Shown in pieces: positions 4,878 to 54,200 of a stretch of 64,000 nt of DNA. The notes beneath the pieces were generated by a model. It was not told where the DNA came from. It was given only the letters and a program-made list of their open reading frames with translations, and ran no database searches. This stretch comes from Lytechinus pictus (lineage: Eukaryota). A program made the translations under genes and the position numbers. The first letter of the stretch is position 1. Each line of letters starts with the position of its first letter. The stretch lies in the NCBI RefSeq assembly GCF_037042905.1, contig NC_087252.1, positions 1,304,001 through 1,368,000 on the forward strand, written 5' to 3'.

Positions 4878-6385
4878 TTCCACGTCGCAGTTCATGTTCG
4901 ATTAAATCTCGTAAAATTGAATATTACAAAGATCAGTTTGACTGTGCCAAAGGCAATATGAAGAAAACATGAAAATGTGATCAATACATAGAGAATTAAA
5001 GGTGTTTATATACGCAAAAATATTGTTGACGGAGATAAAGTACAGATTCAAACTTGTTCCCTGATATTGCGAAAAAACTATTTTGTAAATATTGCATTCA
5101 ACTTAAATAGCAGTTTTACAAGCTCGCCTTGTCAAGATGTCACCACTCATATTAAGAGTAATAACAAGTCAATGTATTGTAATCCAATAACCGTGGGTCA
5201 AGTTATTGAAATAGTAAAAAAAATAAACATAAGTCAAATGTGGGCCATGGTGGAATTGATATAAGAGTAATAAAAAAAAGTATTTATTTCTTGTGTCAAA
5301 CTTTATGTGCAATATATAATGCTTGTCTCGAGTCGGGGATTTTTCCGACGCAACTCAAAATTGGTCGGGTTATTCCCATTTTTAAAGGTGGTTGTCCTGA
5401 AATACTTACAAACTATCGCCCAATTTCCATTTTAACTGTTTTTTCAAAGATTTTTGAGAAATTTATATACTGTATGTTAGATTACTGAATTTTATCAATG
5501 AGTGCAATATTATTAGCCCGAACCAACATGCATTTCGGGTGGGGTATTCCACATCATCAGCATTACTTGATTTTATTCAAAGTATTACTAGTGTTATCGA
5601 AATGAAAGGTTTATCAATTGGCTTATTTCTAGATTTACAGAAAGGGTTTGACACACTTGACCATATTATACTCCTAAAAAAATTATTCAACTATGGAATA
5701 AGGGGGAAAATTTGGGATCTTTTAAACAATTATTTAAGTCATAGACAACAGTTTGTAACTTTAAATAGTCAATAATCTAATTACAAGGACTTAAGGTGTG
5801 GAGTACCCCAAGGTTCTAACTTCGGGCCCCTTTTATTTACTTTGTATATAAATGATCTGTGCGATGTATCTTCGAAATTGAAATATATTTAATTTGCCGA
5901 TGATACAAATATTTTTATGTTCTGCAAGTGAAATTGGTGAAGTAAAAAAGGTAACTTCTTGGTTGACCATTAATAAATTATCTGTAAATATTTTTAAAAC
6001 ACAGTATATGGTTTTTACAAATAAGAAAATATGCATTGACAATCTGCAGGTGCAATTAGCAAATTTGAGTAAAGCAAAGGCATCGCAAGTAAAATTTCTG
6101 GTATTATAATTGATAGTAAATTGCTATGGGTTCCTAATATTGATTTGATTTGTAATAGAATTTCCAAAATCATAGGCATTTTGTACGGATTACGCAATTT
6201 TCCAATTACTGTTTTACGAAATATTTATTCCGCACTTGTTGCACCTTTTTTTGAGTTACGGTATTCTTGCCTGCGCAGTGCTTCTTATTCACACCTGGAT
6301 AGAATTTAAACTTCAAAAAAACTTCAAAAACGTGCAATAAGAATTGATAACCATTCATCTTTTTATAATCATGAAGAGTGCATAT
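4878..6385 (+). mobile_element. CR1/L2-like LINE reverse transcriptase fragment, degenerate (copy 1)
   Basis: Broken frames contain NYRPISIL..FSKIFEK, FLDLQKGFDTLDH, GVPQGSNFGPLLFTLYINDL and FADDT, with several stops and frameshifts. Confidence 0.9.
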
Positions 6386-6651
6386 ATATAAACCCGTCGT
6401 GACTGCGTGCCATGTCGGGACGGGAATTTTGAAATGTTCAACATTTTGGTCATGACAAAATTTAGCGACCGAGTCGTGGACTATGCGCAAAATGTTCTTG
6501 AACTCGTTGTGAACTCGTCTGGACGATGCGGGAGGATGCGTGGCAGTACGCGCAATGCTACGAATTTTTTGAACTGCCACGAATAGTACACGTCGTGTTC
6601 ACGAATATTTTGGCACGACACCGTCCGCATTGCGGAAACTCGTCGTGCCAA

Positions 6652-6858
6652 TGCCATTTTTTTCCTCTGCCATTATTACCGCTGCTATTTATTCCTCTGC
6701 CATTTTTACCTCTACCATTTTTACCTCTGCCATTTTTACCTTTGCCATTTTTACCTCTGCCATTTTTACCTCTGCCATTTTTACCTTTGCCATTTTTACC
6801 TCTGCCATTTTTACCTTTGTCATTTTTACCTTTGCAATTTTTACCACTGCCATTTTTA
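6652..6858. repeat. 15-bp minisatellite (tgccatttttacctc)n, copy 1
   Basis: About 13 tandem units. This repeat produces the spurious FLPLP/GKNGR ORFs. Confidence 0.9.
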
Positions 6859-6874
6859 CACCGAGCCGTTGAAG

Positions 6875-7169
6875 TGTAGATTGATTGCATCATTGAGTGG
6901 TTGTTGAATTGTAGATTGATTGCATCATTTGAGTGGTTGTTGAATTGTGTATTGATTGCATCATTGAGTGGTTGTTGAATTGTAGATTGATAGCATCATT
7001 GAGTGGTTGTTTAATTGTAGATTGATTGCATTATTGAGTGGTTGTTGAATCGGAGATTGATTGCATTATTGAGTGGTTGTTGAATCGGAGATTGATTGCA
7101 TCATTGAGTGGTTGTTGAATTGTAGATTGATTGCATCAATGAGTGGTTGTTGAATTGCAGATTGTTTAC
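6875..7169. repeat. 35-bp minisatellite, short array
   Basis: Unit tgtagattgattgcatcattgagtggttgttgaat, about 8 copies. Confidence 0.95.
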
Positions 7170-7183
7170 TCCCATTATACTCC

Positions 7184-8203
7184 CGGGTTATTCCCATTTT
7201 TAAAGGTGGTTGTCCTGAAATACTTACAAACTATCGCCCAATTTCCATTTTAACTGTTTTTTCAAAGATTTTTGAGAAATTTATATACTGTATGTTAGAT
7301 TACTGAATTTTATCAATGAGTGCAATATTATTAGCCCGAACCAACATGCATTTCGGGTGGGGTATTCCACATCATCAGCATTACTTGATTTTATTCAAAG
7401 TATTACTAGTGTTATCGAAATGAAAGGTTTATCAATTGGCTTATTTCTAGATTTACAGAAAGGGTTTGACACACTTGACCATATTATACTCCTAAAAAAA
7501 TTATTCAACTATGGAATAAGGGGGAAAATTTGGGATCTTTTAAACAATTATTTAAGTCATAGACAACAGTTTGTAACTTTAAATAGTCAATAATCTAATT
7601 ACAAGGACTTAAGGTGTGGAGTACCCCAAGGTTCTAACTTCGGGCCCCTTTTATTTACTTTGTATATAAATGATCTGTGCGATGTATCTTCGAAATTGAA
7701 ATATATTTAATTTGCCGATGATACAAATATTTTTATGTTCTGCAAGTGAAATTGGTGAAGTAAAAAAGGTAACTTCTTGGTTGACCATTAATAAATTATC
7801 TGTAAATATTTTTAAAACACAGTATATGGTTTTTACAAATAAGAAAATATGCATTGACAATCTGCAGGTGCAATTAGCAAATTTGAGTAAAGCAAAGGCA
7901 TCGCAAGTAAAATTTCTGGTATTATAATTGATAGTAAATTGCTATGGGTTCCTAATATTGATTTGATTTGTAATAGAATTTCCAAAATCATAGGCATTTT
8001 GTACGGATTACGCAATTTTCCAATTACTGTTTTACGAAATATTTATTCCGCACTTGTTGCACCTTTTTTTGAGTTACGGTATTCTTGCCTGCGCAGTGCT
8101 TCTTATTCACACCTGGATAGAATTTAAACTTCAAAAAAACTTCAAAAACGTGCAATAAGAATTGATAACCATTCATCTTTTTATAATCATGAAGAGTGCA
8201 TAT
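7184..8203 (+). mobile_element. CR1/L2-like LINE RT fragment (duplicated copy 2)
   Basis: Identical to 5366-6385. Confidence 0.9.
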
Positions 8204-8469
8204 ATATAAACCCGTCGTGACTGCGTGCCATGTCGGGACGGGAATTTTGAAATGTTCAACATTTTGGTCATGACAAAATTTAGCGACCGAGTCGTGGACT
8301 ATGCGCAAAATGTTCTTGAACTCGTTGTGAACTCGTCTGGACGATGCGGGAGGATGCGTGGCAGTACGCGCAATGCTACGAATTTTTTGAACTGCCACGA
8401 ATAGTACACGTCGTGTTCACGAATATTTTGGCACGACACCGTCCGCATTGCGGAAACTCGTCGTGCCAA

Positions 8470-8676
8470 TGCCATTTTTTTCCTCTGCCATTATTACCGC
8501 TGCTATTTATTCCTCTGCCATTTTTACCTCTACCATTTTTACCTCTGCCATTTTTACCTTTGCCATTTTTACCTCTGCCATTTTTACCTCTGCCATTTTT
8601 ACCTTTGCCATTTTTACCTCTGCCATTTTTACCTTTGTCATTTTTACCTTTGCAATTTTTACCACTGCCATTTTTA
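8470..8676. repeat. 15-bp minisatellite, copy 2
   Basis: Duplicate of 6652-6858. Confidence 0.9.
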
Positions 8677-8692
8677 CACCGAGCCGTTGAAG

Positions 8693-10350
8693 TGTAGATT
8701 GATTGCATCATTGAGTGGTTGTTGAATTGTAGATTGATTGCATCATTTGAGTGGTTGTTGAATTGTGTATTGATTGCATCATTGAGTGGTTGTTGAATTG
8801 TAGATTGATAGCATCATTGAGTGGTTGTTTAATTGTAGATTGATTGCATTATTGAGTGGTTGTTGAATCGGAGATTGATTGCATTATTGAGTGGTTGTTG
8901 AATCGGAGATTGATTGCATCATTGAGTGGTTGTTGAATTGTAGATTGATTGCATCATTGAGTGGTTGTTGAATTGCAGATTGTTTACATCATCGAGTGGT
9001 TGTTGAATTGTAGATTGATTGCATCAATGACTGGTTGTTGAATTGTAGATTGATTGCATCATTGAGTGGTTGTTGAATTGTAGATTGATTGCATCATTGA
9101 GTGGTTGTTGAATTGTAGATTGATTGCATCATTGAGTGGTTGTTGAATTGTAGATTAATTGCATTATTGAGTGGTTGTTGAATTGTAGATTGATTGCATC
9201 ATTGAGTGGTTGTTGAATTGTAGATTGATTGCATCATTGAGTGGTTAATTGTTGAATCGGAGATTGATTGCATTATTGAGTGGTAAATTGTTGAATCGGA
9301 GATCGATTGCATCATTGAGTGGTTGTTGAATGGTAGATTGATTGCATCATTGAGTGGTTGTTGAATTGTAGATTGATTGCATCATTGAGTGTTTGTTGAA
9401 TTGTAGATTGATTTCACCAGTGAGTGGTTGTTGAATTGCAGATTGATTGCATTATTGAGTGGTTGTTGAATTGTAGATTGATTGCATCATTGAGTGGTTG
9501 TTGAATTGTAGATTGATTGCATCATTGAGTGTTTGTTGAATTGTAGATTGATTTCACCAGTGAGTGGTTGTTGAATTGCAGATTGATTGCATCATTGAGT
9601 GGTTGTTGAATTGCAGATTGATTGCATCATTGAGTGGTTGTTGAATTGCAGATTGATTGCATCATTGAGTGGTTGTTGAATTGTAGATTGATTGCATCAT
9701 TGAGTGGTTGTTTAATTGTAGATTGATTGCATTATTGAGTGGTTGTTGAATTGCAGATTGATTGCATTATTGAGTGGTTGTTGAATTGTAGATTGATTGC
9801 ATCATTGAGTGGTTGTTGAATTGTAGATTGATTGCATCATTGAGTGTTTGTTGAATTGTAGATTGATTTCACCAGTGAGTGGTTGTTGAATTGCAGATTG
9901 ATTGCATTATTGAGTGGTTGTTGAATTGTAGATTGATTGCATCATTGAGTGGTTGTTGAATTGTAGATTGATTGCATCATTGAGTGTTTGTTGAATTGTA
10001 GATTGATTTCACCAGTGAGTGGTTGTTGAATTGCAGATTGATTGCATCATTGAGTGGTTGTTGAATTGCAGATTGATTGCATCATTGAGTGGTTGTTGAA
10101 TTGCAGATTGATTGCATCATTGAGTGGTTGTTGAATTGTAGATTGATTGCATTATTAAGTGGCTGTTGAATTGTAGATTGATTGCATTATTGAGTGGTTG
10201 TTGAATTGTAGATTGATTGCATCATTGAGTGGTTGTTGAATCGTAGATTGATTGCATCAATGAGTGGTTGTCAAATTGAAGATAAATTGCATCATTAGTG
10301 GTTGTTGAATTGTAGATTGATCTCATCATTGAGTGGTTTTCGAATTGAAG
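8693..10350. repeat. 35-bp minisatellite, long array (about 47 units) with higher-order structure
   Basis: Head-to-tail 35-bp units with no unique spacers. Confidence 0.95.
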
Positions 10351-12200: not shown

Positions 12201-14174
12201 GAGTCTGTACTTTACATACATTATATACTAACATCCTTTACAGTACTTTGACAAACCACTGACTAAAACAAAATCATGAACAGAAAACATTTAATATTAT
12301 AATAGAATTTATAAACTTCAAACACTCTGTTTAATGCAAGAAAATGCTTTCAATTGCAAGTTCTGAACTGTATTTTACAGTATTTTAACGTTTTCAATTT
12401 GATATATTGGAACACTTAAAATCTATCGGTGATATGCCACACTCTTTCAACTAAACTTAAGTCTTTGTGAACAAGGCACATGATCTTGTAAAAAAAAATA
12501 CAAGATGACCTTATACAGGGTGACCATCTCAACTAAATATCCATGCTTCCTGTAACAGGGTGAAAATTACTTTTTTTAAAACCTTAAGTTTGTGAGTTGC
12601 ACAGAAAATTTTAATGAAAACTGACCTCAAATTGATATTCAATTACCCAAGAACACACACATTTGCTCGATTTTCCTGATTAATTATACATTCTAGTCAA
12701 TATCATCAATCATAAAAAAAAGTTCTCCATTGTTGCTAAGTTTTGTGTTACAGGCCCCTGGTATATGCATACACTGTACCTATACATGTAATAACTAACT
12801 TTGTGTCTTTTTTTTTTATTCCGAAATAAAATATCATGCAACTTCATTTTCATCAGAAGCATGCATTTATTGGGATATGCGCTGAGTTATGAGTTGCTCA
12901 AACAAACACTTGCTGCTATGGCCCCTGATGGACAAATACTCTTCAATTTATATTAAAATTAAGGAATTTTGAGAAACCCAAAGATACATCTCTTACTTAT
13001 CACTTAATTATCGATTTCTCCATGAAGACCTATACAAAATCCTGTGAAGAAATGTCACGTTGAACTTATTGATGAAAAACAATCCAAACTGAGTTGTTAT
13101 ATTTACTCGTATAAAAGAAATACCGGTAGAGAGTGTAAATGAGCCAAGGCATTGAACTAATGAAACCATTTAAACTCTGTCAACTGCTAAATAAACCTCA
13201 GATAAACAAAATTACAAACATCTGTTCAAATTTGAATCACAAATATATTCTGTTATAATTCTTATGTACCCAATCATGTTATAATTAGGCGTATGGTTCG
13301 TTCCAGTTATTGATTGATATAAGAATACCAAAAAAAAGTGTTTGAAATATCAAACAAATGTTAAGAAAATTCATCATGAAATAGAAAATTCAATGCGATT
13401 AAAATAATGATTATAACAAATAGAGGAAGAATAAACAAAATAAATCAAAAATCAATATTGTGGCTGTAATAGATTAGTTAAAACAGGAGCAAGCCCACAT
13501 GCATATGGCTTGACCCAAAGATATTAGAATCAATCCAAGAGATAGAAAAGACGGATTTGAGATTAAATGTACTTCTCTTTGAACTCTGCACTTACGAAAA
13601 CTCTTACCCTTTTACCTTTGAAATCCCCCTCCAGTTTATAAGGATGTTCGGGGAAGGGGGTGGTGTTCCATCAACATTTGTCCAGCGACAATTCAAGTCG
13701 ATGCTAAATTACAAAGCCCTCAGATGACCTCTAACACTTGTCAGAAGACATTATTCTCAAATTGAGTTGAGTGAGGTTCTCTGACTAATTAGGTCACAAC
13801 CACTCCCCAACTCCCCAAAATCGCAAGAAAGATGCCAAAGAATTTAATAATGTTGTGCCAGGACTATGAAACCAAACGGGAAGTAGATGAGCATAGACAA
13901 AATTGCAGTTTACTGCTTCTCAAGTTACTCCTCCCAAGCCTGCTGAGTTTTGAGTTAGTGGTCTGATCGGGAAGGAGTTGTTGGTTGACCTAAGATCTGT
14001 GTGGGACAGCCGAATATCTCTCTGATCTCGTCATGGAATTGATCCCCGTCGCTATAAAGAGAGTGGAAATCAAAGTAAAATTGAGTATTGCATACTGGGT
14101 TCTGTATCTTTAACGTCATCACACACTTACAATTGGTCTGCGACCCGATCGGGAATAAAACATAGTAAAATTTG

Positions 14175-14583
14175 GTGGATTCACAATATGGTGCGCCATC
14201 TATCGGTTGCCGCGAACAGGCCAAATTTCTATCTTCGGGGTCGACATCGAGCGCAGGCAGCGCCATAGAGATTAGTATACATCTCTATGGGCAGCGCACA
14301 GTGCACTGTGATGTGACTATGATGCTTCAAAAATGAAAACAATTTGGCAAAAGCAGCGGAAAAATTCACCGAAAACGGTCAAAATTTTGCAAAGAAATAT
14401 GCGGCAAATTTCTCTCCCACCTCCTGGACCCAAGTAAACAGCATATGTAAGCCGGTAGAGCCCTGTTGGCCAGCGCAGCATAATCGCATGCATGCAAGAG
14501 ATGTCAACTTTTTCCCAAGAGGCATTGCAAATTTCGTCCTGTCCGCTGCAACCAATAGATGGCGCACCGTATTGTGAATCCAC
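14175..14583. mobile_element. Inverted-repeat element (about 50-bp imperfect TIRs) flanked by 23-bp direct repeats
   Basis: gtggattcacaatatggtgcgccatctatcggttgc pairs with gcaaccaatagatggcgcaccgtattgtgaatccac. The flanks are ggaataaaacat(a/t)gtaaaatttg at 14152-14174 and 14584-14606. Confidence 0.7.
14256..14297. mobile_element. Putative P-element-type excision footprint (26 bp between 8-bp direct repeats)
   Basis: ggcagcgc|catagagattagtatacatctctatg|ggcagcgc. Confidence 0.7.
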
Positions 14584-17241
14584 GGAATAAAACATTGTAA
14601 AATTTGATGCAAATATTAGGACATGGAACATCTTACTGTAATAAGTTCTATAAATACTTTAATTTAAATCTGTGGCTATGCCACCATCCTTATTAGAATA
14701 AATGCAAATTGAATATCTAGTCGTAATGACTTCATAGCAATCCTCCTACAATTGACTACAAAACCAATTTGGTCTTTACTCCAAAACAATGTCTTGCAAT
14801 CATCAAAAATTGTTATATTAGTATTCTTACAGTTAATTTGAATCTCAAATAAAAAGATAAAGAATCATTATTACTTCTTTTGGGGGAATGTTTCATAAAC
14901 ATACCTTTAGACTCAAATCTCAATGTGTTATGAGCTCATTTAGTTCTTTGGAATGTCAACTCTATGATAGTCTACTTTAATAAAGGGAATCCAGTCACTT
15001 CAGTTCTTTGGCACCACCAAATAATGTAATCAGCCTCCGTCTTGTCTGGCTCTTGTAATTGCTCCAAGGTATGCTTTTGAAGTTCTGGGTGAAAAACAGA
15101 AGTAAACTGAAGTGTGATTACAATAGTGTATTGATATACATGTATTACTGATTTATAAGATATACCGCAATAAATATTTCTTATGTTATCATTGTATATA
15201 TTGTAAAACAAATGTTCATGTCAAGTGAATGAAGTTTGTTAATAAGTTAAATTCAATTCAATAATATTAACTATACTTTCTTATATTTGCCTTACAATTT
15301 CTTGATCAGGACACTGTTGCAAAAAAGAGTTGTATTTGAACACAAAAAATCAAGACTGAAATTATGAAACTATATGATCTTTCGGGGAGTTTTGTTAGGA
15401 AATTAAAAATAAATATTTAGATAAACTCACCATACTTGGCTATGTTTTATTCTATCCATGATCCGGCTGGAATGACCTGCTAACAAATGGAGGATTTACA
15501 AGGTGTGGCAGTACAAAGAAGCAGAATGAGTCTCTGAACAGTTCTTGCTTGCTGGGAAAAAAAAGAGAAAAATCAAAATGACTTTCCAACAGATTAGAGT
15601 TAGATTCATATGGCACTTTAAAAATCCTTGTGTTTTTGGTGATTGAAACATAATAAATATATCCCTGGGCATTGGATCTATCACTGTTCCACAAATAGAA
15701 TGCACCATCTCCACTCCTTGGGGAGCAACCTGGCCAGGCAACAGTGGTTTTTTTACCAATGCTTACATTGCAAGTTTCTTCTCCTACACTGCTAATAGTC
15801 ATGACTAAATATACGAAATTCCTGAAATTAGAGGGGGAATGGTATCTAATTCCTCATCAATGGAGTATGTTATTAATATTAGGGTAAACAAAGACTAGAT
15901 TATCAATATTCATTAATGGAATACAGCAAAAGTTCTTAATTCATTGTTTCAAACTCTAAACATTTCATGCAAAAAACGTTTTTTCAAAAACTTCCAACAC
16001 AAATAGAAAATTTTAGCAATAATGTATTAATTCAATATTTCTTTTTCTTCAAAATGTTAGTGTTAGGAAACAAGGAAAACTTTGCCAACAATTTGTTTAT
16101 ATTAAAAAAAAAATTAAAACTCAATATTTTGAACTCTGTACAATACTGATGTGAATAAACATGGAAAGCTTCTCTGCAAAGTTCGAATTAGAGAAATGAA
16201 CACAATTTAATTTTTTTTTCAGTTTTGAACATCATATCCTTAACCTTCATCACAATGATAAACTAACAATTCCTTGCAAAGTACATTCAGCAACAGTAAG
16301 AAACTGTCATAGACTAAAAAAGGTCCACACAATTTTGATGGCAGTCAGTTTTCTGTCAAAATTGTTGACTGTATATTCATCCTCTTATCAAATTATGCAA
16401 CACAGGTGAAGTTTCAAACATCCGCAGATAACAGCATTGTTTATACCCTATGTTTTTGTTTTGCTTCGAAGCATGTTTGAGATCAAATGGCTCCTCAGGA
16501 ATATTTTATCAACGATTGTCATTTGACATGTTGTGAGATCAGACAAATTTCCTAAAATTTTGATTGGCTGAGAAGCACAGTTCCTATGGTAACCATTGGA
16601 TTAAAGAGACCTTTCATGAAACCATAGTGTAATCCATTTGTTTCAATGAAATATAAAAGTGCCACATTATATCTCACCCAAAGTTAAGAAAAGGAAAAGC
16701 CTTGTAGGGCAATCAAAGTTGAAAAAGATAACCGAATTGTATGAACAATCCTGTAATATTATCAAGTCTACACACATAATATCTATTCTCTTTTAGAAAA
16801 TGTTTTGTCCTAAAATGCAATCATTCATATAACCCACCCCCTTTATATTCTTGAGTGTTCTGTGTCCTTCTTTATGGGAGGATCCAGTCAGGCTAGACAA
16901 CATTTCACATACTGATTATGAACAGAACAATGGTGATGTTGTAGGCCAGAGTTGGACGTGTGTTCCACCAGTGATGGTCGAGGTTTTGACATAGAATAAA
17001 GTTCATTGACCTTATATGTGCTGTGTTGTTCATTGAACTCTGGTTCCATATACGTCCAACCCTGACCCACGACAGTGAGCCCATCTCGAGTGTTGCCTGA
17101 TCCGACTAGATCCGTCACTGCTTCTGGGCCCAATAATAAAATCTTCCATGGCAATTCATCATAGATAGACTGAAAGCACATATTTTCATTGCAATTATTC
17201 TTGTTAAAATCCCCCTTAATCAAACCAAGTAGTTCTAGACT

Positions 17242-32708: not shown

Positions 32709-35486
32709 TAGTCCAGGATAGGCCCCATAGGAACTTGACCAAACCTTGTTTTTTTATATATACAATATTTTTTGATGGTTTCTTGTCAATTCGAGGGTGC
32801 TGATTACGAATCTGGATGATGCCACTCGTGTAACCTTGAGCATTTTCCGCAAATTGGCAAAATCCAATATGGCCGCCAAAATATGCAAATTACCCATGAA
32901 AATCATAAAATTGTCCGCACATTGGCTATGAAATGCATGAAATCGTGTGGCTGGAGTGAAATACTCTGTCAAAAAATGATTTTTGACAAAATCTTTATTT
33001 TCCTGATATTCAAAATGGCCGCCATAGGCCATTGTATACTCTACTATGTACAATATGAATAGGAAAACCAATTTTCACAAAAATTAGCACTAAACTGCAA
33101 TAAATCGCGATGTATGAACGAAGTAATATATGCAAATCATCATTACTAACGAGATATATCATTTATTATGTCATATATGGGAACATTGCTGTATTTTGAT
33201 GTAAAAAATAGCCCACTGGCCCAAACAGTATTATATACTGTACAATGGCAATGGCCGGGGCCAAAAAATTGACAATTAAGAGTGAGCACTAAAATGCATA
33301 TTATTAAGATTAAAAAAAACCATAATTGTTAATATGCCATTTAGGTGATAAATGCTGCATTTTGAAATTCAAAATGGCCGCCATAGGCCCTATATTTATC
33401 ATGTACAATGCGAATGGAGAAACTAATTTTCACACGAGTAAGAAACATAAAATGCATGAAATTGTGATCTACGAGTAAATATTGTCTGACAACATGTTTT
33501 ATAGCAAGACATATCATTTCTTTTGTCATGCATGAGATGCTGTATTATGAAATTCAAAATGGCCCCTGTAGCCTAGGCACTAACAGTATTATCTACAATG
33601 TGAATGGGGACATATAATTTTGTAAAAACTTGGATTTGCTTGACTATGACATCCATATAATCCTGTTGTATGAGTAAAATGTTATTTGAAAACATATTTT
33701 TTTTTATAAATTATAGCATTTCATCTGCCATATAGGTGATAAATACTGTATTTTGACATTCAAAATAACCTCTACAAGCCCTAATTATATTATGTAACAT
33801 GCGAATAGGGAAACTAATTTTCACAAGAGTGAGAATCATAAAATGCATATAACTGTGATGTACGAGTAAAAATATTGTCTTAAACATGGTTTCTAACTAA
33901 ATACATCACATATTGGTCGTGGAGGTAATAAATGCTGTACTTTGAAATCCAAAATGGCTGCCATAGGTCCTCAAAGTATTGTGTACATTGTAACATGGGA
34001 CATAGAATTTTGACAGAATTTGGCTTTGCTTGACTCTAAATATTGCATATAATTGTGAATTGTGATCTGAGGGTGAAATATTGTCTAAAACCATGGTTTC
34101 TAACGAGATATAATTATCATAATGTTGTGTAATTAAGGTGATATATGCTGCATTTTTAAATTGAAAATGGTCACCATAGGCCCTTATCGTATAATATGCA
34201 ATTTGAATGGAGACAAATAATGTTCACAAAAAGGGCATATGGCAGCCATTTTGAATGTTGAAATACAGTATTTATCACCTAAATTACATAAGATATGATA
34301 CATTTTGTTATAAATCATGTTTTCAGACAATATTTCACTCATACATCACCATTTGGCCAAGCAAAGCCAAAATCTGTTGAAATGATTTGTTCCCATTCAC
34401 ATTGTGCATAATACCGTAAGGGCCTGTAGCGGCCATTTTGACATTCCAATAACAGTATTTATCACCTAACTGGCAGAATAAACGATATATCTTAATAGAA
34501 ATTATGCTTTCAGACAATTTTTTACTCATAGATCACTATTACGTGCATTTATGGTGCTCACTCCTGTGAATATTGGTTTCCCACTTTGCATTGTACATAA
34601 TACAGTTAATGTCTATGGCGGCCATTTTGAAAGTCAAAATACAGTATTTAACACAAACTTGAAACCTGAATGATATATTTTGTTAGAAAATACGTTTTTA
34701 GACAGTATCCCATTAATTTATCACATATGCATTTTAGAGCTCACTCTTGTGATTTCTTTGCTCCTCTTTCTCATTGTGCATAATACTTTTAGGGCCTTTG
34801 GCAGCCATTTTGAATATCAAAATACAACATTCATCCCATACATGGCATATTAATAATATATTTCGTTAACAATTATGTTTTTAGTCAGTATTCCACTCAT
34901 TTAATCTTAATAATATGCATTTTAGTGATCACTCTTGTGAATTGGTTGGCCCCCAATTGCCATTATACGCAATACTGTTTGGGCCAGTGGCGGCTATTTT
35001 AGATATAAAAATACAGCAATGTTCCCATATATGACATAATAAATGATATATCTCGTTAGTAATGATGATTTGCATATATTACTTCGTTCATACATCGCGA
35101 TTTTTTGCAGTTTAGTGCTCATTTTTGTGAAAATTGGTTTTCCCTATTCATATTGTACATAATAGAGTATACAATGGCCTATGGCGGCCATTTTGAATAT
35201 CAGGAAAATAAAGATTTTGTCAAAAATCATTTTTTGACAGAGTATTTCACTCCTGCCACACAATTTCATGAATTTCATAGCCAATGTGCGGACTATTTTA
35301 TGATTTTCATGGGTAATTTGCATATTTTGGCGGCCATATTGGATTTTGCCAATTTGCGGAAAATGCTCAAGGTTTCACGGGTGGCATCATTCAGATTCGT
35401 AATCAGCACCCTCGAATTGACAAGAAACCATCAAAAAATATTGTATATATAAAAAAACAAGGTTATGCCTCTTCTATCCTGGACTA
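32709..35486. mobile_element. 2.8-kb foldback element with TAG termini and 3-bp TSD (Academ-like, non-autonomous)
   Basis: tta|tagtccaggatag ... ctatcctggacta|tta. The outer arms of several hundred bp are near-perfect inverted copies (ORFs 32754-33071 minus and 35105-35452 plus mirror each other). Internal modules are about 190-200 bp. Confidence 0.85.
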
Positions 35487-36207
35487 TTATGGTTAGGGCA
35501 TTACTTTGATTAATTTATATAAGGGAAAAACGCATGGATCAATTGATGGTTTAAGATTTTGTCGCTGATGTGTACAGAAATAAAGGTTTAGTTGACCCAC
35601 GTCCTCCCAACTCCCTGGTTGACCCTTCCCCCATTCTTGTGTCAGTGTAGCCTACAGACACCCCCCCCCCCCCTCCTTCTCGCCGCTTAAACCTACATGT
35701 ACAATGAAGACATCTCCGTGTCTTTAAGGCACAGTCACATTTCTCCTAGGTGGTTTGAATGAAAATTAATAAATTTGTTGTTTTCGACTCGCCGTGGGGG
35801 AAATGTGACTGCAGCGTATATCTCAGTGACTCCATTTTTTATGCTTCAGTTGTGATTATTGGTCTTATTATCACAGGCTCACAGATCAGGGTGACATTTT
35901 GTGAAAGTTGTCAGCACTGACGATTTCAGTGAAATACTTTGTTTTTATTGGCTCAGAAGCTCTGGCCGCTGACTGTTACAATTTAACTGCCGAAGAATTT
36001 CAACTTGTCAGTACTGGCAAATTGCATGAAATGGTCCCCAGTAATATTTTTGCACCCCTCCCCAATCTGCTTGATGTTACTTAGGGGAATACCCCTGTAC
36101 TGCTGTTGCGCGCGTTCGGCACACTACTGTATTCGCCGTGATGTCACTACAGGCACTGTGTCGCTTGCATAGCATGGATGTATTTGAAAAGAAATGACAT
36201 ATTCTAC

Positions 36208-36253
36208 ATGTACATCATAGAGATGTATACTAATACATCTCTATGATGTACAT
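36208..36253. mobile_element. Putative P-element-type excision footprint (30 bp between 8-bp direct repeats)
   Basis: atgtacat|catagagatgtatactaatacatctctatg|atgtacat. Same end sequence as 14264-14289. Confidence 0.7.
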
Positions 36254-37534
36254 GCATCGACGCAATATGAACAACGCCATAACCCATAAGACTAGACTAC
36301 TTGCGCAGGAGTAGTCCAAGCAGACTAAATCGTTTTGTGACTGTTTACCATGGACCTAGTAGATCCATGCTGTAACATTGAGTGTACAAACACTGATTCT
36401 TAATTTTCCCTTGTTTTCTGTTTGTAATATAGACATGGACTGCAGCAATTTGAATGATAATTATGGGTTTATTTACTAATTTTTCAGAAGAAGAGTGCAA
36501 ACTCAAGAGTCTGTTTTTGCAGACTATACTTGTGACGCAAACAAGGGACTTGCCCGTTTGAGACTGTGGTGTTTTTCATTTTGTCGTGTCGCATCGCTGC
36601 ACGCTCGTCTATGCCATGGTACGCTAACAATGCAACTCAAAGTAATCAATGAACACAAATACTTAGCTGCTACATCGATGAAGACATAACCTTGATCTAG
36701 CTAAAGGTTAAATGAACGAATTCAGTAAACTATGATATACTGTTTCAAATTATTTCGAGGGATTTGCATGGAAAACATGCATGTACGTCGTGATTCCATT
36801 TTCAACATGGAAAGAATCTCACGGAAAACCCAGTACTACACAAAGCCTGCCACAACATGGAAACTACAGAACAATCTCTCACCACAGATTGGAAGAATGC
36901 CACATAATGTGGCATGTTGACATTCAAATGATTATGCCATGATTTTCCCATAAGAGTTAAGACTCAAACGCAAGATTTAAAGGGAAACGCACCCTGTCGT
37001 TGGTTTAAAATGAAAAAAAAAAATAGATAATGATAATAATAATAATGTTAATAATAATAATGAACTTTAAATAGTATTTTCTCACAAAATTGCCAATGAT
37101 TTATTTTGATACTATAAAGGCCTTATCAGACATGCTGTTTCATTCTTATTTCAATGCAAGTATGAAAGTATTCCATCATCATCAAATACTTGTAGAAAAA
37201 TACGATTTTGTGTTTCTAAAAAGATGTGATGAGTCGAAGAATGGTGTTTATGAGATTCTGATTCGAGACATAACAAAACAAATATATCGAACCTACGTAC
37301 AGTAGTACATGAATGGCTTTTGAAGTGTGGCCCATTCGGATATGTACATGTCCATGGAGCTCTCTTTTTACATCCATGGTAGGGTCTAGTTTGATACAAT
37401 GCACATACATGTACACCCCCCCCCCCCCACCGAGAAGAATGGCCATTTAAGGGCGATTCCATGCTAGTAAACTCAGCCATTTTCACAACATGTTTCAACC
37501 TACTGTCCAAACAAACAATGAACTTCAATGTATT

Positions 37535-37763: not shown

Positions 37764-39867
37764 TGACTACCCAGACTTGATATTGTTGTCGAAATGTCCC
37801 GTACAACACGTATGGAATCGCCCCAAAGGGAATACGAACATATTTGTACATGCAGTGGTAGAATACGAATTTAGAATATCCACCGAACAGGGACCGAACA
37901 TCAATGCATTTCACTTGCGATGTTGACATGATCTTCCGCCCCTGGATAGTTTATCTCTTTTCCTATTTAAAGCTAGTTTCCCGCTTTTGATAAAGTTTTA
38001 TTGTCCAAAATGGGGTCGAGTCTCGCCATTGTAAGGTGTAGAAAGCTGTGAAGCAACGCAGATTGCAATGTAGAAAAATTGTATGAGAATTGTAATGATT
38101 GTGCATTCATGTTTGTGCAATATGATCCCAGTATGATCCCAGTATGATCCCAGTATGATCCCAGTACATCTATTCTGCATGACCGACATTATTTTCACCT
38201 CGGCCTATTGTCCATGAATAACGGCAACAGCAACAACAATAAAAAATAAAGTAATTCGTTTCGATGAGAAACAAATTAAGGATAGAATATAATTATTGTG
38301 TTCTGTCAAATTCAGAATAAGACTAGAGTTGTACGTAGGCCTACAGAACAAGGTTTTGAGGTTGAAGAGAAAGAAAAGTGGATGGACACTATCATATCCC
38401 GACAGAAGGTGATGGAACAAGGTTTATTGAAGAAAAGCCACTAAGATGGGGAGAGAGTATCAGAGTAACGAGGGGAGGGGGGGGGGGTCAAAGTAGATTA
38501 GTTAAAGAAGAAATAAAATGAGATGTGGGAGGGGGAGGTATATGGGATTGCAATTAGAACACAACGGATGTTTGTGTCTTTTGAATTGTAGAGTATTATA
38601 TAAGATCAATTTGTATATGTTTTTATGATTAGCTAAGAATGCTTTTCACTCGAAGCATATTCATCATTTGCGATAAGTCTACCGTATGTGTCACTTTCTC
38701 GACGCAATCGCTGTGCGGAAGAAAAATTTCGAAATATGATTTATGAATATTGCGCAATGCACGTGTTTGCGAAACCATGGATAGGTCCATGGCGAAACAA
38801 AGCATACATGTATAGTGGTCTCTGTTGCTATTTCCATTGAGCTACTAACGGAGTAATATAGCTCCACGCTATTTCATTGCACATACATCTTTTTTTTTTA
38901 ATTACACGTCTTTACTCGAGTATGCGGCTAGCGCGCGCTAATCGATGTTCCCTGCGCCCTGTTGCAAAAAAAAAATCCAGTCATGTCATCTCTGTATGAG
39001 AGGGTATAGTGCAGGCTGAAAATAATAATTTTTATACTAAATAAGGTAAATTCAACAGAGCAAAAAGCTGATTATGACATTTGAGTCTGATAAAAACAAA
39101 TCTGTATTAGACTATTAGGGTACCATGCATGTATGTGCCCCCACCCCCAGGATGGGAGAGAAGGCTCCTTTCTTTTTTAAAATAATAATCAAACTTTTGA
39201 ATGATGACAGCCCCCACCCTTTTTTTGTTCTCTTCAAAAAAAATTAATTCAGCGCCTCTTCTTACATTTATTTGTAATTTATGGAACCACTCCCATGACA
39301 CTTGAACCCTGAACGAAGATCTGATTCGACAGAAACGAGCACAGTGCAACAACCCGCGTCTGCGCATGTCCCATTTCCAACGGTGCTTACCCGATCGTAG
39401 TCTATAAACCCAGACTCATTTGAAGAAAAAAAAAACACCCGAACATCACACACACACGCACGCGCACAAATGTGTCCCACAGGCCAAGACCCTGTTTCAT
39501 AAAGCTTAGTGATTGTTCTTTGGGTTGATTTCTACTCTTTGATGAACGATCCATCGTAAAAATCATTCGCTAAGTTTTATGTTACGGGGGTGGGGGCGAT
39601 TCATACAACAATGTCTCTGCCTACTTGATCACCCCAATAAAAATGCAATCGATAATCTGTATTAATGTATCAGCCAGCATCATTCGTGCATGGAGATTCT
39701 GTGTGTTTACACATGATTCTGTGTGAGCTTACCAAATGCGACCGTCTGTACGTTTGCTCTTAGTTTACAAGAAAAAATAATGACGTCAATAAAATCCCCG
39801 ACCCCGAGATGGCATTTGTATTTAGGAAACGCTGAATCATTCAAGTGACATTAGTCTTTTGTATCAG

Positions 39868-48200: not shown

Positions 48201-51200
48201 AAGTGATCTACCGGGATGTTGCAATGCTTCCCAAACTAAATAAATGAGCTTCTAAGTGTGCAATATTAAGTTTCAGAATTACATGTAGCCATGGGAAGTT
48301 AAACAGACATTTACGTCACAATACTGTTGTTGTTGTTGTTGTTGTTGTTGCTATCTTTCAATGTTTTCTGAAATAAGTTGGATATTTCTACTCTTGCGTT
48401 ATTACCAACTTTCGGATTCTTTTCAAGTAAATATCTATGAGGTGCTTTGAAATAACATATCCCCGCAAGTTAGAACATTTTAAAAATATATGAATATTTG
48501 TAAACATTAACACATGCTGTACTAGTATATTCGTCTACGGAGTTATGGGCCGGTACATAGACCCAACTAGAGTTCATTTGGATTTTATTCTGTGGCATAT
48601 CGAATAACAATAATTGTAGTCCCGTGTGTATCAAGCTTGCTATATTTTATCTTCTTCTCGACTGTTCTAAATCATGATTTGTTTGTTTTCTTATCAATAG
48701 TAAATTTGCTTGGGTATTAATGTTTAGTTTGCGAATTGAAAACTGCACAATAGACTTCCTTTTGTTGACCCCTTTAACCCTTGTTCAAACCGTGCTGTAA
48801 ACAATTACAGTGCTCTGTGCAAATAGGGGTACTAGCATAGAGCTATGGTACTAGTAAACGTACACCCATGTCTACGTCTGCGTACATAATTAAATGGGCA
48901 TTGACTGTGTGTGCATGTACTGTACAGTGGGAGCGTTTTTGTGCATGTATGGATGGGGAATCCCCGGTTACGCAGTAATATCGATGCCGCCCATTGAGTT
49001 TTCGTATTTATCCCTTGCAAAATACTTCAGACGCTTTCTGCGTTGCAATGGCAATGGTATCATGGAGTTTGTCTTGAAATCAGTGGCGTAGCTAGGATTT
49101 TTTTCCCGGGGGGGGGGGGGGCACTGGGGGGTCCTTGCTTTTTCAGGGGGGGCACCGGCCATTTTCCGGCGGATCCGACTTTCGCCAATAGGGGACGGGG
49201 CCCGAAATTACCTTCACCTATATCAGTCACTTCTTAGTTTTATTCTTATAAAACAACATAAACATAAAATAATCTCATAAGCCTTATAAAAAAAAGTGCG
49301 AGCGTGAAGCGCGAGCGATTTTTTATTTTTTTTTACTTCAATGTATTTTTTCCTGAAAATCTAATTTTCTGGGCAATGTTATGTGTGATCCTGAACAAGA
49401 TTCGTATGTAACTAGATGGTTACTTCGAACGCCAAGCGCGAACTGAAATTTTTATCAACTGTTCTAGCATTATCGAAAAGGGACCTGTTAAGGACTGCAT
49501 TTTGCTCAGTAAATTATACTCTATTTATTAAGCTATAAATACTTCCAGCCCGGACCATCCCTTTAAGTGATGACCATAAATTATAATCTATCACGGCCGG
49601 ATAATGACGTTCACGCATACGGTCAAAATGGTATCTAAATTAGCAAAGTCAAGGGGTGTAACCGTGTAAGCCCGCTTTTTAACAGCCTAATACGTGATGA
49701 TTGTGTGTATGTGTGTGGGGGGGGGGGGGTCACACTCTTGAAAATGTTTTAAGCATTATTGAGGAAGAGGAAATCATAACAAAATACTGGAATGACTCCA
49801 CTTGGATTCTTGGGAAGATCAAGGAGTTGTGCTGGTAACTCCTTGGGAAGATCAATGTATAAGCACGGTGCCTCACTAGACTGCAGGCACAGACCCTGAT
49901 CGAAACTTTGATCAGCAAGTGCGTCTCCGCGCAAAGACTAGCACATACAAAACTTGCTGTTTCAAGAGGGCCTTCAGTACACAAGGCATGAGTAGACTGC
50001 ACATTCAGACTGTTAACTCGGGTGAAGGGTTTGCACAGCAGACTAGTGCCTTACCTTGAAATGACAGTGGGTCCTACATCTATGCCATGGAGGGGGGGGG
50101 GGGGGGTCCCACACCACTCCGGTGTGGCAAGGTGGGCCCTAACCGGGAAACATGTGATCGTAAGGTCCAAAGTTCGACCAAACATCACAATTAAATGCAA
50201 ACATAATGGTGTTTGACAACCAGCCAAGATGTTCGAATCTATTTCATGAGAAACGTGGCTTAGACGGTGTTTTTCCCCATCGTTCAAATCGCAGTTCTTA
50301 TCTACTGCGCAGTTCTAAATGTCCACAATGGTCAGTTACATTTTATTATCTTTAAACACATACATGATGTATTCGGATTATAGGGGCGTCGTGGTCTCTT
50401 TGTTACGACTCTCGTCTTTCAAACAGAGGGTCGTGGGTTCGAATCCCAGCCATGGCGTGTTTTCCTTCAGCAAGAAATTTACCCACATTGTGTTGCACTC
50501 AACCCAGGTGAGGTGAGTGGGTACCCGGCATTATTGATTCCTTGAATGCTCTGAGCGCTGAAAGGCGGCTCGAGCTAAAGCCGGGGTAATCATGATAACA
50601 ATGCGCATCGGAATATATTATTTCTAGATAGATGGCGCTATATAAATGCCTATTATAATTTTTGTTATAATTGTGTTGAGATTTTTCTTCTCCCCCCATA
50701 ATTTTTTTGATTTCCCTTCAATTTACTATAGTCCTGTGAAAACGAATTATAGGAGTATTAGAGATGTAAAGCCCTTTCGAGTGGTTCATCTGCTTGGCGC
50801 ATTGGCATGAAATTAGGAAATCGGTACATGATTCATATTTGTAATCATTATTCAATTTGTTAGATGTTTGTAATATGTATTGTTTAGTCAGTAAGCTGTT
50901 CATTCTTGGTCCTAGTACCCCCCCCCCCCTCCGTCTCAGTCTATCTTCCTTATTATCCCCTTTTCGATGATAGTAATGGCGCAATCTTGCGTGTGAAATC
51001 GTTTTAGAGGTGATAGAATCTTAATGGAATGAGGAAATAGTTGGGAAACCCGCAACACACAGGCATTGTTAGTCCAGACAAGTTACGAAGAAAGATGTAC
51101 ATGACTGTACACGTCAAGCTGACCACATTCCCCTATCATGGGATTGTGGGGTGTTAAACGGTTATTAAAGGGTTATTGGGGCTGAAAATAATTTATATCT

Positions 51201-54200
51201 AAATAAAAGAAAGTAACATTCACAGAGAAATATGCAGAAATGTCATAAAGATCTTATAACAACTAACGAAATTAATTGATTTTAAAGTTTAACAATATTT
51301 TGTGTCCGAAATTTTCTTGTTCGTATTAAAGTTATGCTATAATATATGAAAACATAGAAATTTCATATTTTCATACATGTTTTTATGATGTCTCCCTTAT
51401 GATAAAATTAGTTGGAGCAATAAATCTTTATAAATTCATGAGTTGTCAATCAATGTTTTAATTCTTGAGGACAACATTTTAATGAACATGATTTGTTTTC
51501 ACCAGTTGACTTGGCAAGATAACGTATCCCGTCATGTCAACATAATAAGGCTATTAAATCGACTTGGTAAGATAATAGTATTTCGCCATCTCGTCAATTC
51601 TATTGCACTTTATAAAGACTCTGTTATTACAAAATAAGTTGGCAAACTACGAACATGGTCACATGTTTAATAGATTTCTCTGTATTTGTCTCTAAAATAG
51701 AAACACAAACTTTTAGTATTTTTCATTTCCCTTTATTTGGTTAACCATATCACACCTACAAACTACACCTCGTGACAGTCGTATATGCCTACCGCTTGTA
51801 TACAGGTTTTAATCATTTCCTTTAATACACTCAGCGCAATTTGAATTTACAGACTCCCAGGCGCTCCCAGGTATGAGTGGTAATAGGGGAAATCCCTTTT
51901 CCGTAATTGAAGGTCTGATAAACTATTATTGTTTTTGTAGTGTATGCTACGCCGAGGCTCAAGCTAAATATCTGATACTTACATGTAGAAGGAAATAGTG
52001 TAAGAATAAGCCGTCATAATTATTGTTCAAGGTTTTATGTGAATTCTGCAGTTTATATATTTATTTTTTCATGAATAATGTAATAAAACTGCTTGTTTTC
52101 CTTTTCCGCTGTTTCGAAAATACTATATTGATATTTCGCTAGATATTGAATGTGTATTGTTATGCTTATTAGAATAATGATTTTACAAATTATAATCATC
52201 TGTTAATCTATTTAAAATGTAACTGTAATTTTGTGATAGATTTTGACATAATAATCCCAAGATAATTTAATATTCTCTCTTTTCATTTCCTTTTTTTATA
52301 TTCCTTTATCTTTTTTTTATGGTCATGGAACGGTCGGGGTGTAGTGCCTAAGCCCCCCCCCCCCCCCCCCCCGTCAATCTACACGCCAGTGTTTCAGTGT
52401 TATATCGCCATGTACGATTTTTTTTACTCTTACATATTAAAACAATATCCCCCCATAATCATTGATTTAATTCATCTCGGTTTTTTTCTCTCTTCTGTCT
52501 ATCATTATTCTCCACTAGGATATCCTCCATCATCGGCTCCGTTCGCTGTCAATCCATTCGTCAGTCTATCAATCGCCATCGATTGCCAGAGAGCTACCGA
52601 GCAAGATTCTGATGGAGACACGTAAGATATTCATTTCGTGATATCCATTGTTGATCAACATTAGCCGACATTCTCTGCTATCATGATGGTCCTTTGTTTG
52701 TATTTAGTTTCCACTGTCAAGAGTTGTGACACGATTGAAACAGTTATCTTAATCGTGGAGTAATCGTCGTGTGAAATCGTATCAGATCTGAAGGTCATTC
52801 GTGGCAATCATTTTGATTCTTTAAAAAAAAGTGGAGGGCGAAAAAAAAATTCGCGATTAGCTACGGAATATCAATCGTAACTGATCGTACGACAACGGGA
52901 ACGAGGTATTAGTATTACGATTGGCCTACGACCCAAGGGCTGCCAACTATCACTTATACCTCGGTCACGTTTGCTCTACGGCGGCCGTACGGCGAGTCGA
53001 AACAGTCGTTTTATTAAATTTAATTCAAGCCACCTTCATGTATATATAGCTGGGAAAAAAATGTTTCGACTCGCCGTACGGCCGCCGTAGAGCAAATGTG
53101 ACCGAGGTATTATTGAGAGTGAGACTCACACATTTTTTGTCTTTTCTCACTCTAAAATTATGTTTCATTCGCATGCATTTCTAAATGATTTCACTCATTT
53201 TGACCCCTAAAGTAATTGGCCTGTGGGAGTCACTCTCAACTAAAGTTATCAAATGTTGGCACTGCTGCGACCCGAATTATCAATAAAAAGTTATTACAGT
53301 TATTGATGAGGAGATTTAGTCATGAATCCAGCTGGAGGCAAAAGTTCTGAATTGTCACTTGAATAAAAATCAATTGCTATTTCATTCTTTAAAGCGAATT
53401 CAATTCATAATCGTTATGACATCACAGCAATCGTACGATTAGCTACGATTGTAAGCCAATTATCTTCATGTTCTTATGTCCTTGATTAATTTTGTCGTAG
53501 CATTTAAAGCAAACAATTGTCCCCGTGTACCAAATTATATGTAATTATGTGAAATTGTCTCCTGAAATCTTTGCGCATGGCAGGCAACCTTTTTTTTTTA
53601 TTATTATTATGATTATGCACCAGCAACAGGTGCATCATATGTGAAATACACCTTCACGAGGGCGACACTTTCACCAGCAACTCTACCAGCCTGTCTCACC
53701 AAATCAAGGGCAACATCACATGCACTACCACTAATGTTGTATATCTCATCACTTGCAGAGTTTGTAGGGTACAATACATAGGGGAAACCAAGACCACACT
53801 CAAGAAACGATTCTACGGGCACAGATCCACTGTCAACACAGCAAAGCTGGACACTCCAGTTGGCCGCCATTTTAACCTCCCCAACCACTCCATCACTGAC
53901 ATGATGCTACAGGGCATCGAATCTTTAGGTACCCGTCCTGACTCAGTCCGTACTAGTAGAGAGAAGTTCTGGATGAGACGACTTCGCACCACCCAACCTC
54001 ATGGCCTGAACATCCAAGAGGGGAACGACTGATTATTCTTTCCTATCCACTTTCAATTTATATATACATATAATTTTTCCCCTCAGCTCTTTTGAATAGT
54101 TACATTATAGTTTCTTACTCTACTTTCCTCCCATATCTCATACAAGCTCAGCTCCAATTTTTCCTTCCTTATTCAGGCGATATAATAATTATTATATATA

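What the first reader, a model, noticed from the sequence alone, without database searches (positions are those of the whole stretch)
36208..36253. Second footprint of the same CATAGAGATGTATACTA family, again capped at 17 nt
Seen: atgtacat|catagagatgtatacta+atacatctctatg|atgtacat, that is 17 nt plus 13 nt of the same end, with a different TSD and junction than at 14264. Two independent loci with different retained lengths but the same 17-nt maximum fit repair of P-type overhangs better than a fixed micro-element. The TSD overlaps a TACATGTA (36205), suggesting a scar laid on an older scar. Caveat: this TSD is itself palindromic.
Basis: partly seen in the sequence, partly recalled or inferred. 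Interest (0 to 1): 0.7.

Follow-up and report, generated by a model that had tools for sequence, protein, structure and literature searches.

The report
P-like transposon excision scar
This 30-letter palindrome between two copies of an 8-letter target is most likely the scar left when a cut-and-paste jumping gene related to the fruit-fly P element jumped out, a known kind of scar, though the claimed exact 17-letter limit is not proven by these copies.

Summary
An 8-bp duplication (36208-15, 36246-53) flanks a 30-nt insert that shares its ends with the 26-nt insert at 14264; 0 of 60 simulated windows hold such a structure. The anatomy matches published Drosophila P-element end-joining junctions (PMC2895639, Table 1). 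The window holds three more CA…TG micro-inserts with 7-bp duplications. Best reading: a P-superfamily excision footprint (0.75).

The "17-nt cap" is not shown. Read from the long arm, the two copies agree for 19 nt, and the 26-mer is the 30-mer minus 4 nt. They therefore also fit 19-nt tails joined at AT microhomologies, or one fixed element plus a deletion. For 17: a contig at 11.8 times the single-copy depth carries a 34-nt (17+17-sized) relative, and an unrelated scar at 49820 also gives 17.

No parent element, transposase, empty allele or filled allele was found; no genome was held. "Scar on an older scar" is possible but unproven. The scan already reported this class on other DNA of the same genome (e1-7810740), so this is one more instance.

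The parts
36208..36215 (.). Left copy of the 8-bp target-site duplication (palindromic, ATGTACAT)
36216..36245 (+). 30-nt insert, CATAG...CTATG, with 13-bp perfect arms and a 4-nt centre (36229-36232); inferred remains of the two transposon ends
36216..36232 (+). Long arm, at least 17 nt; identical to the 14264 copy through 19 nt (to 36234)
36233..36245 (-). Short arm, 13 nt on the identical-ends parse; up to 16 nt if the two ends differ and joined at a CTA microhomology
36246..36253 (.). Right copy of the 8-bp target-site duplication
36207..36254 (.). Resulting perfect 22-bp hairpin with 4-nt loop, a by-product of the palindromic target
   Evidence: -22.7 kcal/mol as DNA, z -10
36205..36212 (.). 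TACATGTA octamer overlapping the left duplication; one of 21 in the window
   Evidence: 21 seen, 3.0 expected
14256..14297 (-). Sister scar: 8-bp duplication GGCAGCGC around a 26-nt insert (14264-14289), long arm on the minus strand, inside a small inverted-repeat element
49813..49852 (.). Scar-like micro-insert of another family: 7-bp duplication, 26 nt, CAAGG ends, 9-bp arms, length minus arm = 17
   Evidence: caveat: the direct repeat extends to 14 nt
48829..48854 (.). Scar-like micro-insert: 7-bp duplication, 12 nt, CATAG...CTATG ends
38769..38798 (.). Scar-like micro-insert: 7-bp duplication, 16 nt, CATGG...CCATG ends

Best explanation
A DNA transposon with CATAG ends, most likely of the P superfamily, inserted at an 8-bp palindromic target and duplicated it (the duplication is shown; the insertion is inferred). 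It later excised by a staggered cut that left a long 3' single-stranded tail of its own terminal sequence on each chromosome end (inferred from Drosophila P, where the tail is 17 nt). End joining fused the two tails with a few bases lost, leaving duplication + 30 nt + duplication. The 14264 copy is the same process at another site. Tail length is at least 17 nt if both loci kept one whole tail. My odds within this model: 17 nt about 0.5, 18-19 nt about 0.3, undetermined or other about 0.2. The scar is non-coding and most likely has no function.
For: Exact 8-bp duplications with different sequences at two loci sharing the same ends; 0 in 60 of 60 simulations; 0 of 115 same-ended hairpins elsewhere carry a duplication. 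Drosophila P junctions have the same anatomy, target + up to 17 nt + up to 17 nt + target, and a 30-nt insert is the commonest short-microhomology product, 14 of 66 tabulated isolates (PMC2895639 Table 1). P makes 8-bp and 1360/Galileo 7-bp duplications (PMC3698922; PMC3276498), and the window holds both kinds of micro-insert. In public run X1 a second contig of depth 74.6 (against 6.33 for the locus contig) aligns from the insert's first base over 36216-36247 with 4 extra letters in the centre, i.e. a 34-nt relative, the size of two whole 17-nt tails. Length minus perfect arm is 17 for 3 of the 5 micro-inserts, one from an unrelated family, and exceeds 17 in none. hAT and MULE excision forms hairpins on the flanking DNA (PMC5499845), so it is not expected to leave long element-derived tails (my inference).
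Against: No parent element, transposase, empty allele or filled allele was seen, so 'P' rests on anatomy alone. With identical 17-nt tails both junctions would be blunt, whereas only 1 of 66 Drosophila junctions in Table 1 was blunt (those flies lacked Rad51). Whole 17-nt tails plus microhomology of 2 nt or more predict products of 19, 27, 29 and 32 nt, none seen; 19-nt tails predict 26, 30 and 36, and 26 and 30 are the two seen. The 26-mer is the 30-mer minus 4 nt. The centre of the 34-nt relative, read literally from the tool, does not continue the shared 17-mer beyond 14 nt, and its flanks were not returned.
Confidence: 0.75

Rival explanations
1. A fixed 30-nt micro-element that is itself mobilised and makes 8-bp duplications; the 14264 copy lost 4 nt by slippage between two AT dinucleotides.
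For: The 26-mer equals the 30-mer minus 4 nt between direct AT repeats: shared prefix 19, shared suffix 9. The multi-copy depth of the 34-nt relative could reflect a replicating short unit.
Against: Three lengths (26, 30, 34) among three observations of these ends. Drosophila P needs transposase-binding sites internal to its 31-bp repeats (PMC7776569 section 6), which 30 nt cannot hold. Other end families in the window give 12, 16 and 26 nt.
Confidence: 0.1
2. Remnant of a longer inverted-repeat element (P, hAT or unclassified, 8-bp duplication) reduced by internal deletion or aborted gap repair, with no fixed cut depth; the 17 is coincidence.
For: Internally deleted P and P-like copies are common. 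hobo, a hAT element, also makes 8-bp duplications. No parent was found to fix the superfamily.
Against: All 5 micro-inserts are 30 nt or shorter and none has length minus arm above 17. The window scan for 8-bp-duplicated inverted-end inserts up to 8 kb returned no longer CATAG-ended copy. Published internally deleted P elements are 0.5-2.8 kb.
Confidence: 0.12
3. A local inverted duplication (template switch or hairpin expansion) at a palindromic site, or a small-RNA hairpin, with no transposon involved.
For: The locus is a perfect 22-bp hairpin; its 'duplication' is self-complementary; the empty site would be a tandem of a 6-bp unit.
Against: The same 19-nt sequence occurs at 14264 between non-palindromic 8-bp repeats, and a third contig shares the insert from its first base. 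Rfam matches are all miRNA models at 20-27 bits against gathering scores of 76-144.
Confidence: 0.03

Closest known systems
Drosophila P-element excision junctions (17-nt 3' tails repaired by end joining; PMC2895639 Table 1, section read; PMC7776569 sections 6 and 8 read)
   Same: 8-bp duplication on both sides; insert made only of the two element ends; CAT...ATG termini; total length 26-34 nt; unequal arm lengths.
   Different: Natural, fixed scars in a marine-invertebrate-type genome rather than laboratory products. Different end sequence. Parent and enzyme unknown. Junctions are blunt on a 17-nt parse, which was rare in the fly table. Tail length here is bracketed at 17-19 nt.
Zebrafish Pdre2 / THAP9 P-like elements (PMC7776569 and PMC10983969, passages read)
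   Same: 8-bp duplications; 13-bp terminal repeats, the same length as the perfect arms at 36216.
   Different: Those are long elements. The passages I saw give no mapped cut position or natural footprints; the preprint's supplementary figures of excision products were not seen.
1360/Hoppel and Galileo (P superfamily, 7-bp duplications; PMC3698922 and PMC3276498, passages read)
   Same: The three neighbouring micro-inserts have 7-bp duplications and CA...TG ends.
   Different: The passages give no footprints for these families, and the finding itself has an 8-bp duplication.
hAT and MULE excision footprints (PMC5499845, passages read)
   Same: hAT (hobo) also makes 8-bp duplications and prefers palindromic targets (PMC3276498).
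   Different: They cut through hairpins on the flanking DNA, so their footprints should alter the flanks rather than keep 13-17 nt of each element end between intact duplications.

Membership tests
P-superfamily excision footprint | Exact 7- or 8-bp target duplication on both sides | tested here: met
   8 bp at 36208/36246 and 14256/14290
P-superfamily excision footprint | Insert made of two inverted element ends, each no longer than the cut stagger | tested here: inconclusive
   Inverted arms are present; the long arm is 17-19 nt and the element's true end sequence is unknown
P-superfamily excision footprint | Retained length varies between independent sites | tested here: inconclusive
   26, 30 and 34 nt seen, but the 26-mer can derive from the 30-mer by one 4-nt deletion
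P-superfamily excision footprint | Ceiling at exactly 17 nt per end | tested here: inconclusive
   For: 34-nt relative and the 49820 insert. Against: 19-nt identity, and the 19-nt model predicts 26 and 30 nt
P-superfamily excision footprint | A longer element with the same ends exists and is linked to a THAP/P-type transposase | not testable with these tools
   No genome held. None in the window or among 40 metagenome loci (14 of the 40 examined further)
P-superfamily excision footprint | Empty or filled allele at the same site | tested here: inconclusive
   Only one run, as contigs, identical to the window over 35500-37004; no 38-nt deletion or joint listed; 62 loose ends not shown
P-superfamily excision footprint | Termini of the P type (CA...TG) | tested here: met
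   CAT...ATG as in the Drosophila ends printed in PMC2895639. A recalled terminal consensus for the superfamily could not be confirmed in the library
hAT footprint | Element removed, flanks altered through hairpin opening, no long element ends kept | tested here: not met
   Both duplications are intact and the insert is shared between unrelated sites
MITE / fixed micro-element | Uniform length and sequence across copies | tested here: not met
   3 of 3 observed relatives differ in length; the sample is very small
Known RNA family (miRNA precursor) | Rfam match at gathering score | tested here: not met
   Best 27.2 bits against a gathering score of 90

The most novel reading that the evidence does not exclude
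The parent family has two unlike ends sharing only a 13-bp inverted repeat, yet is cut 17 nt in, beyond the repeat. The 34-nt relative would be the full 17+17 join, the 30-mer a 17+16 join through a 3-nt CTA microhomology, and the 26-mer a 17+9 join. The 17-nt stagger of Drosophila P would then be a ruler conserved in a deuterostome transposase, independent of repeat length. Natural scar spectra would read out each family's cut depth and the germline repair pathway without biochemistry. Scars at palindromic targets would also create perfect 22-bp hairpins of pre-miRNA size in one step.
Probability: 0.25. Interest if true: 0.6.

Novelty: new member of a known kind. Interest (0 to 1): 0.33.

Why it matters
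The long staggered cut is described for Drosophila P; in the passages I read on zebrafish THAP9 it was not mapped. If such scars are P-type footprints, a genome-wide arm-length census would test whether 17 nt is conserved outside insects or is family-specific, and would count past excisions directly. This single locus adds little beyond being one more copy of a class the scan has already reported in this genome. Its useful lesson is that arm lengths must be counted with microhomology and unlike ends allowed for, or a false '17' can appear.

Tried and rejected
Whole-genome census: no genome is held.

Allele test: the run search returned one run with all sampled words. Its contig matches 35500-37004 with 0 differences and 0 gaps, so it may be the source sample and is not independent. 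No 38-nt deletion or joint was listed, but contigs drop rare variants and 62 loose ends were not shown. This says nothing for or against empty or filled alleles.

Parent search: the 17-mer gave 40 metagenome loci. 24 of 40 share one upstream context, and 0 of 40 have a matching far end with a duplication. 14 of the 40 were checked for fuzzy ends and long frames without finding an element. L004 and L007 look like non-coding animal DNA with the 17-mer but no second end; they may be chance.

Gapped footprint patterns in viral (27 loci) and prokaryotic (88 loci) collections: 0 of 115 with a duplication; used only as a control.

Transposase in the window: 120 of 130 stop-to-stop frames of 78 aa or more were scanned against Pfam (10 duplicated or low-complexity frames left out); no THAP or P-transposase family.

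Rfam: only sub-threshold miRNA hairpin matches.

Literature: searches listed no paper whose title or abstract start describes natural P-type footprints in echinoderms or this end sequence. Subscription papers and Repbase are not covered.

Scan look-ups by sequence, near and relatives returned nothing.

Other candidates dropped from the scar count: 9025 and 56393 (inside tandem arrays), 52993 (inside a larger inverted repeat), and the shifted parses at 14263, 36213 and 36215 (shorter or imperfect duplications).

Full report
Context. The window is animal DNA, about 37% GC, with a rhodopsin-type receptor, a C2H2 zinc-finger gene, ankyrin exons and many repeats. Earlier scan notes call this genome sea urchin; I did not test that. 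No whole genome is held. The finding lies in non-coding sequence whose immediate flanks have single-copy depth in the one public run (6.33 at 36103-36169 and 36304-36973).

Observation. ATGTACAT lies at 36208-36215 and 36246-36253 around a 30-nt insert; GGCAGCGC flanks a 26-nt insert at 14264-14289. Two such structures occur in the window and none in 60 of 60 order-4 Markov simulations (these lack repeats, so they understate chance inside tandem arrays). Among 115 hairpins with the same 9-10-nt ends in viral and prokaryotic collections, none has a flanking direct repeat of 4 bp or more. The palindromic duplication turns the locus into a perfect 22-bp hairpin, so the 36208 copy alone is ambiguous. 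The 14264 copy, with a non-palindromic duplication, fixes the boundaries at CATAG...CTATG.

What it resembles. Drosophila P transposase cuts with a 17-nt stagger, makes 8-bp duplications, and the donor break is repaired by recombination or end joining (PMC7776569, passages and sections 6 and 8). The tails left on the chromosome are 17-nt 3' overhangs (10.1101/2022.05.24.493293, passages). Table 1 of PMC2895639 (section 7 read) lists 66 junctions from Rad51-deficient flies: by my count 20 long-microhomology, 27 short-microhomology, 1 blunt and 18 with insertions. They have the form target + part of one end + part of the other end + target, and a 30-nt insert joined at AT is the commonest short-microhomology product (14 isolates). 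P makes 8-bp and 1360/Galileo 7-bp duplications (PMC3698922 and PMC3276498, passages). A relaxed scan found three more CA...TG micro-inserts with exact 7-bp duplications at 38776, 48836 and 49820; simulations gave 0 to 0.08 per window, and two further hits inside tandem arrays were dropped. hAT and MULE elements cut through hairpins on the flanking DNA (PMC5499845, passages), which should not leave long element ends between intact duplications (inference).

The 17-nt cap is not established. Read from the long arm, the two inserts agree for 19 nt, and both short arms (9 and 13 nt) end on AT. Under blunt joining of identical 17-nt tails, two different short-arm lengths would share the next two letters in 4 of 55 length pairs (arms of 7 or more). 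Identical 17-nt tails with one kept whole and 2 or more nt of microhomology predict products of 19, 27, 29 and 32 nt; 19-nt tails predict 26, 30 and 36 nt (short tails of 4 nt or more), and 26 and 30 are what is seen. The 26-mer is also the 30-mer minus 4 nt between two ATs, so one fixed unit plus one deletion fits both loci.

Evidence that still points to 17. In run X1, a second contig of depth 74.6, 11.8 times the locus contig, lies on the insert with four extra letters (TAGC) listed behind 36229. The binned depths place it on 36216-36247, starting at the insert's first base. It is thus a 34-nt relative with the same outer arms, the size of two whole 17-nt tails. Its centre is uncertain. Read literally, it follows the shared arm for only 14 nt and would be a sibling family. 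If the tool's place is off by one, it is the shared 17-mer joined to a different 17-nt right end; then the true inverted repeat is 13 bp, the 30-mer is a 17+16 join through CTA, and three copies share exactly 17 nt. I could not retrieve the contig, its flanks or the tool's convention, so this is a lead. Separately, length minus perfect arm is 17 for 36216, 14264 and the unrelated 49820 insert, and 10 and 7 for the other two. That quantity is tail length minus microhomology, so it does not separate 17 from 19 either, and 49820 can also be read as a 14-nt direct repeat.

Scar on a scar. TACATGTA occurs 21 times against 3.0 expected, as earlier notes report elsewhere in this genome. It overlaps the left duplication. 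0.5% of all 8-mers and 26 of 372 palindromic 8-mers in the window overlap one, and 1 of the 5 micro-inserts does. P and hobo prefer palindromic 14-bp target motifs, and the empty site here pairs at 6 of 8 positions, so target preference is a sufficient alternative. By inspection, removing the six letters would leave a left repeat matching the right one at only 6 of 8 positions; so if the octamer is a scar, it came first. That it is a scar was not tested.

What failed. No parent element or transposase was found in the window or in 40 metagenome loci. The only run is identical to the window and kept as contigs, so no allele test was possible. Rfam gave only sub-threshold hairpin matches.

Mechanism. 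Shown: exact duplications, shared ends at two unrelated sites, three lengths of the same ends, excess over chance. Inferred: insertion of a longer element, staggered excision, end joining, P-superfamily identity, tail length. It works like a P footprint (0.75); membership is untested for the two strongest features, the parent transposase and the alleles.

Novelty. Footprints of this form are known from Drosophila experiments. Nine library searches (listings only unless named above) showed no description of natural ones in echinoderms, but most subscription papers and Repbase are outside the library, and the supplementary excision figures of PMC10983969 (passages only) were not seen. PMC1562414 (passages) added only that Anopheles P elements and their MITEs have 8-bp duplications. 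The scan itself already reported this class on another piece of the same genome (e1-7810740); I could not check its claims of thousands of copies and family-specific cut depths. Verdict: a new member of a known kind, interest 0.33.

Noticed in passing
window 14152-14606: The small inverted-repeat element hosting the 14264 scar (14175-14583, arms about 50 bp with 6 mismatches) is flanked by a 23-bp direct repeat with 1 mismatch, unusually long for a target duplication of an inverted-repeat element.
   Followed up: partly
window 38769-38798, 48829-48854, 49813-49852: Three more CA...TG micro-inserts (16, 12 and 26 nt) with exact 7-bp duplications, probably scars of other P-like families.
   Followed up: partly
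whole window: TACATGTA occurs 21 times against 3.0 expected, sometimes as tandem 6-bp units (32094/32100).
   Followed up: partly
window 32742-35464: A 2.7-kb foldback-like element with about 480 bp of 96% complementary arms and internal repeats of about 190 bp; no Pfam match in its frames.
   Followed up: no
window 5366-8700: A 1818-bp tandem duplication holding a reverse-transcriptase fragment and 15-bp and 35-bp satellites; could be real or an assembly artefact.
   Followed up: no
window 52946-53120: A small hairpin element with 66-nt arms.
   Followed up: no
window 53613-54029: A GIY-YIG endonuclease fragment, probably from a Penelope-like element (the attribution is recalled).
   Followed up: no
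L004:2425-2441 and L007:191-207: Non-coding, animal-looking contigs in the metagenome collection carry the same 17-mer without a second end; chance or a related transposon end.
   Followed up: partly
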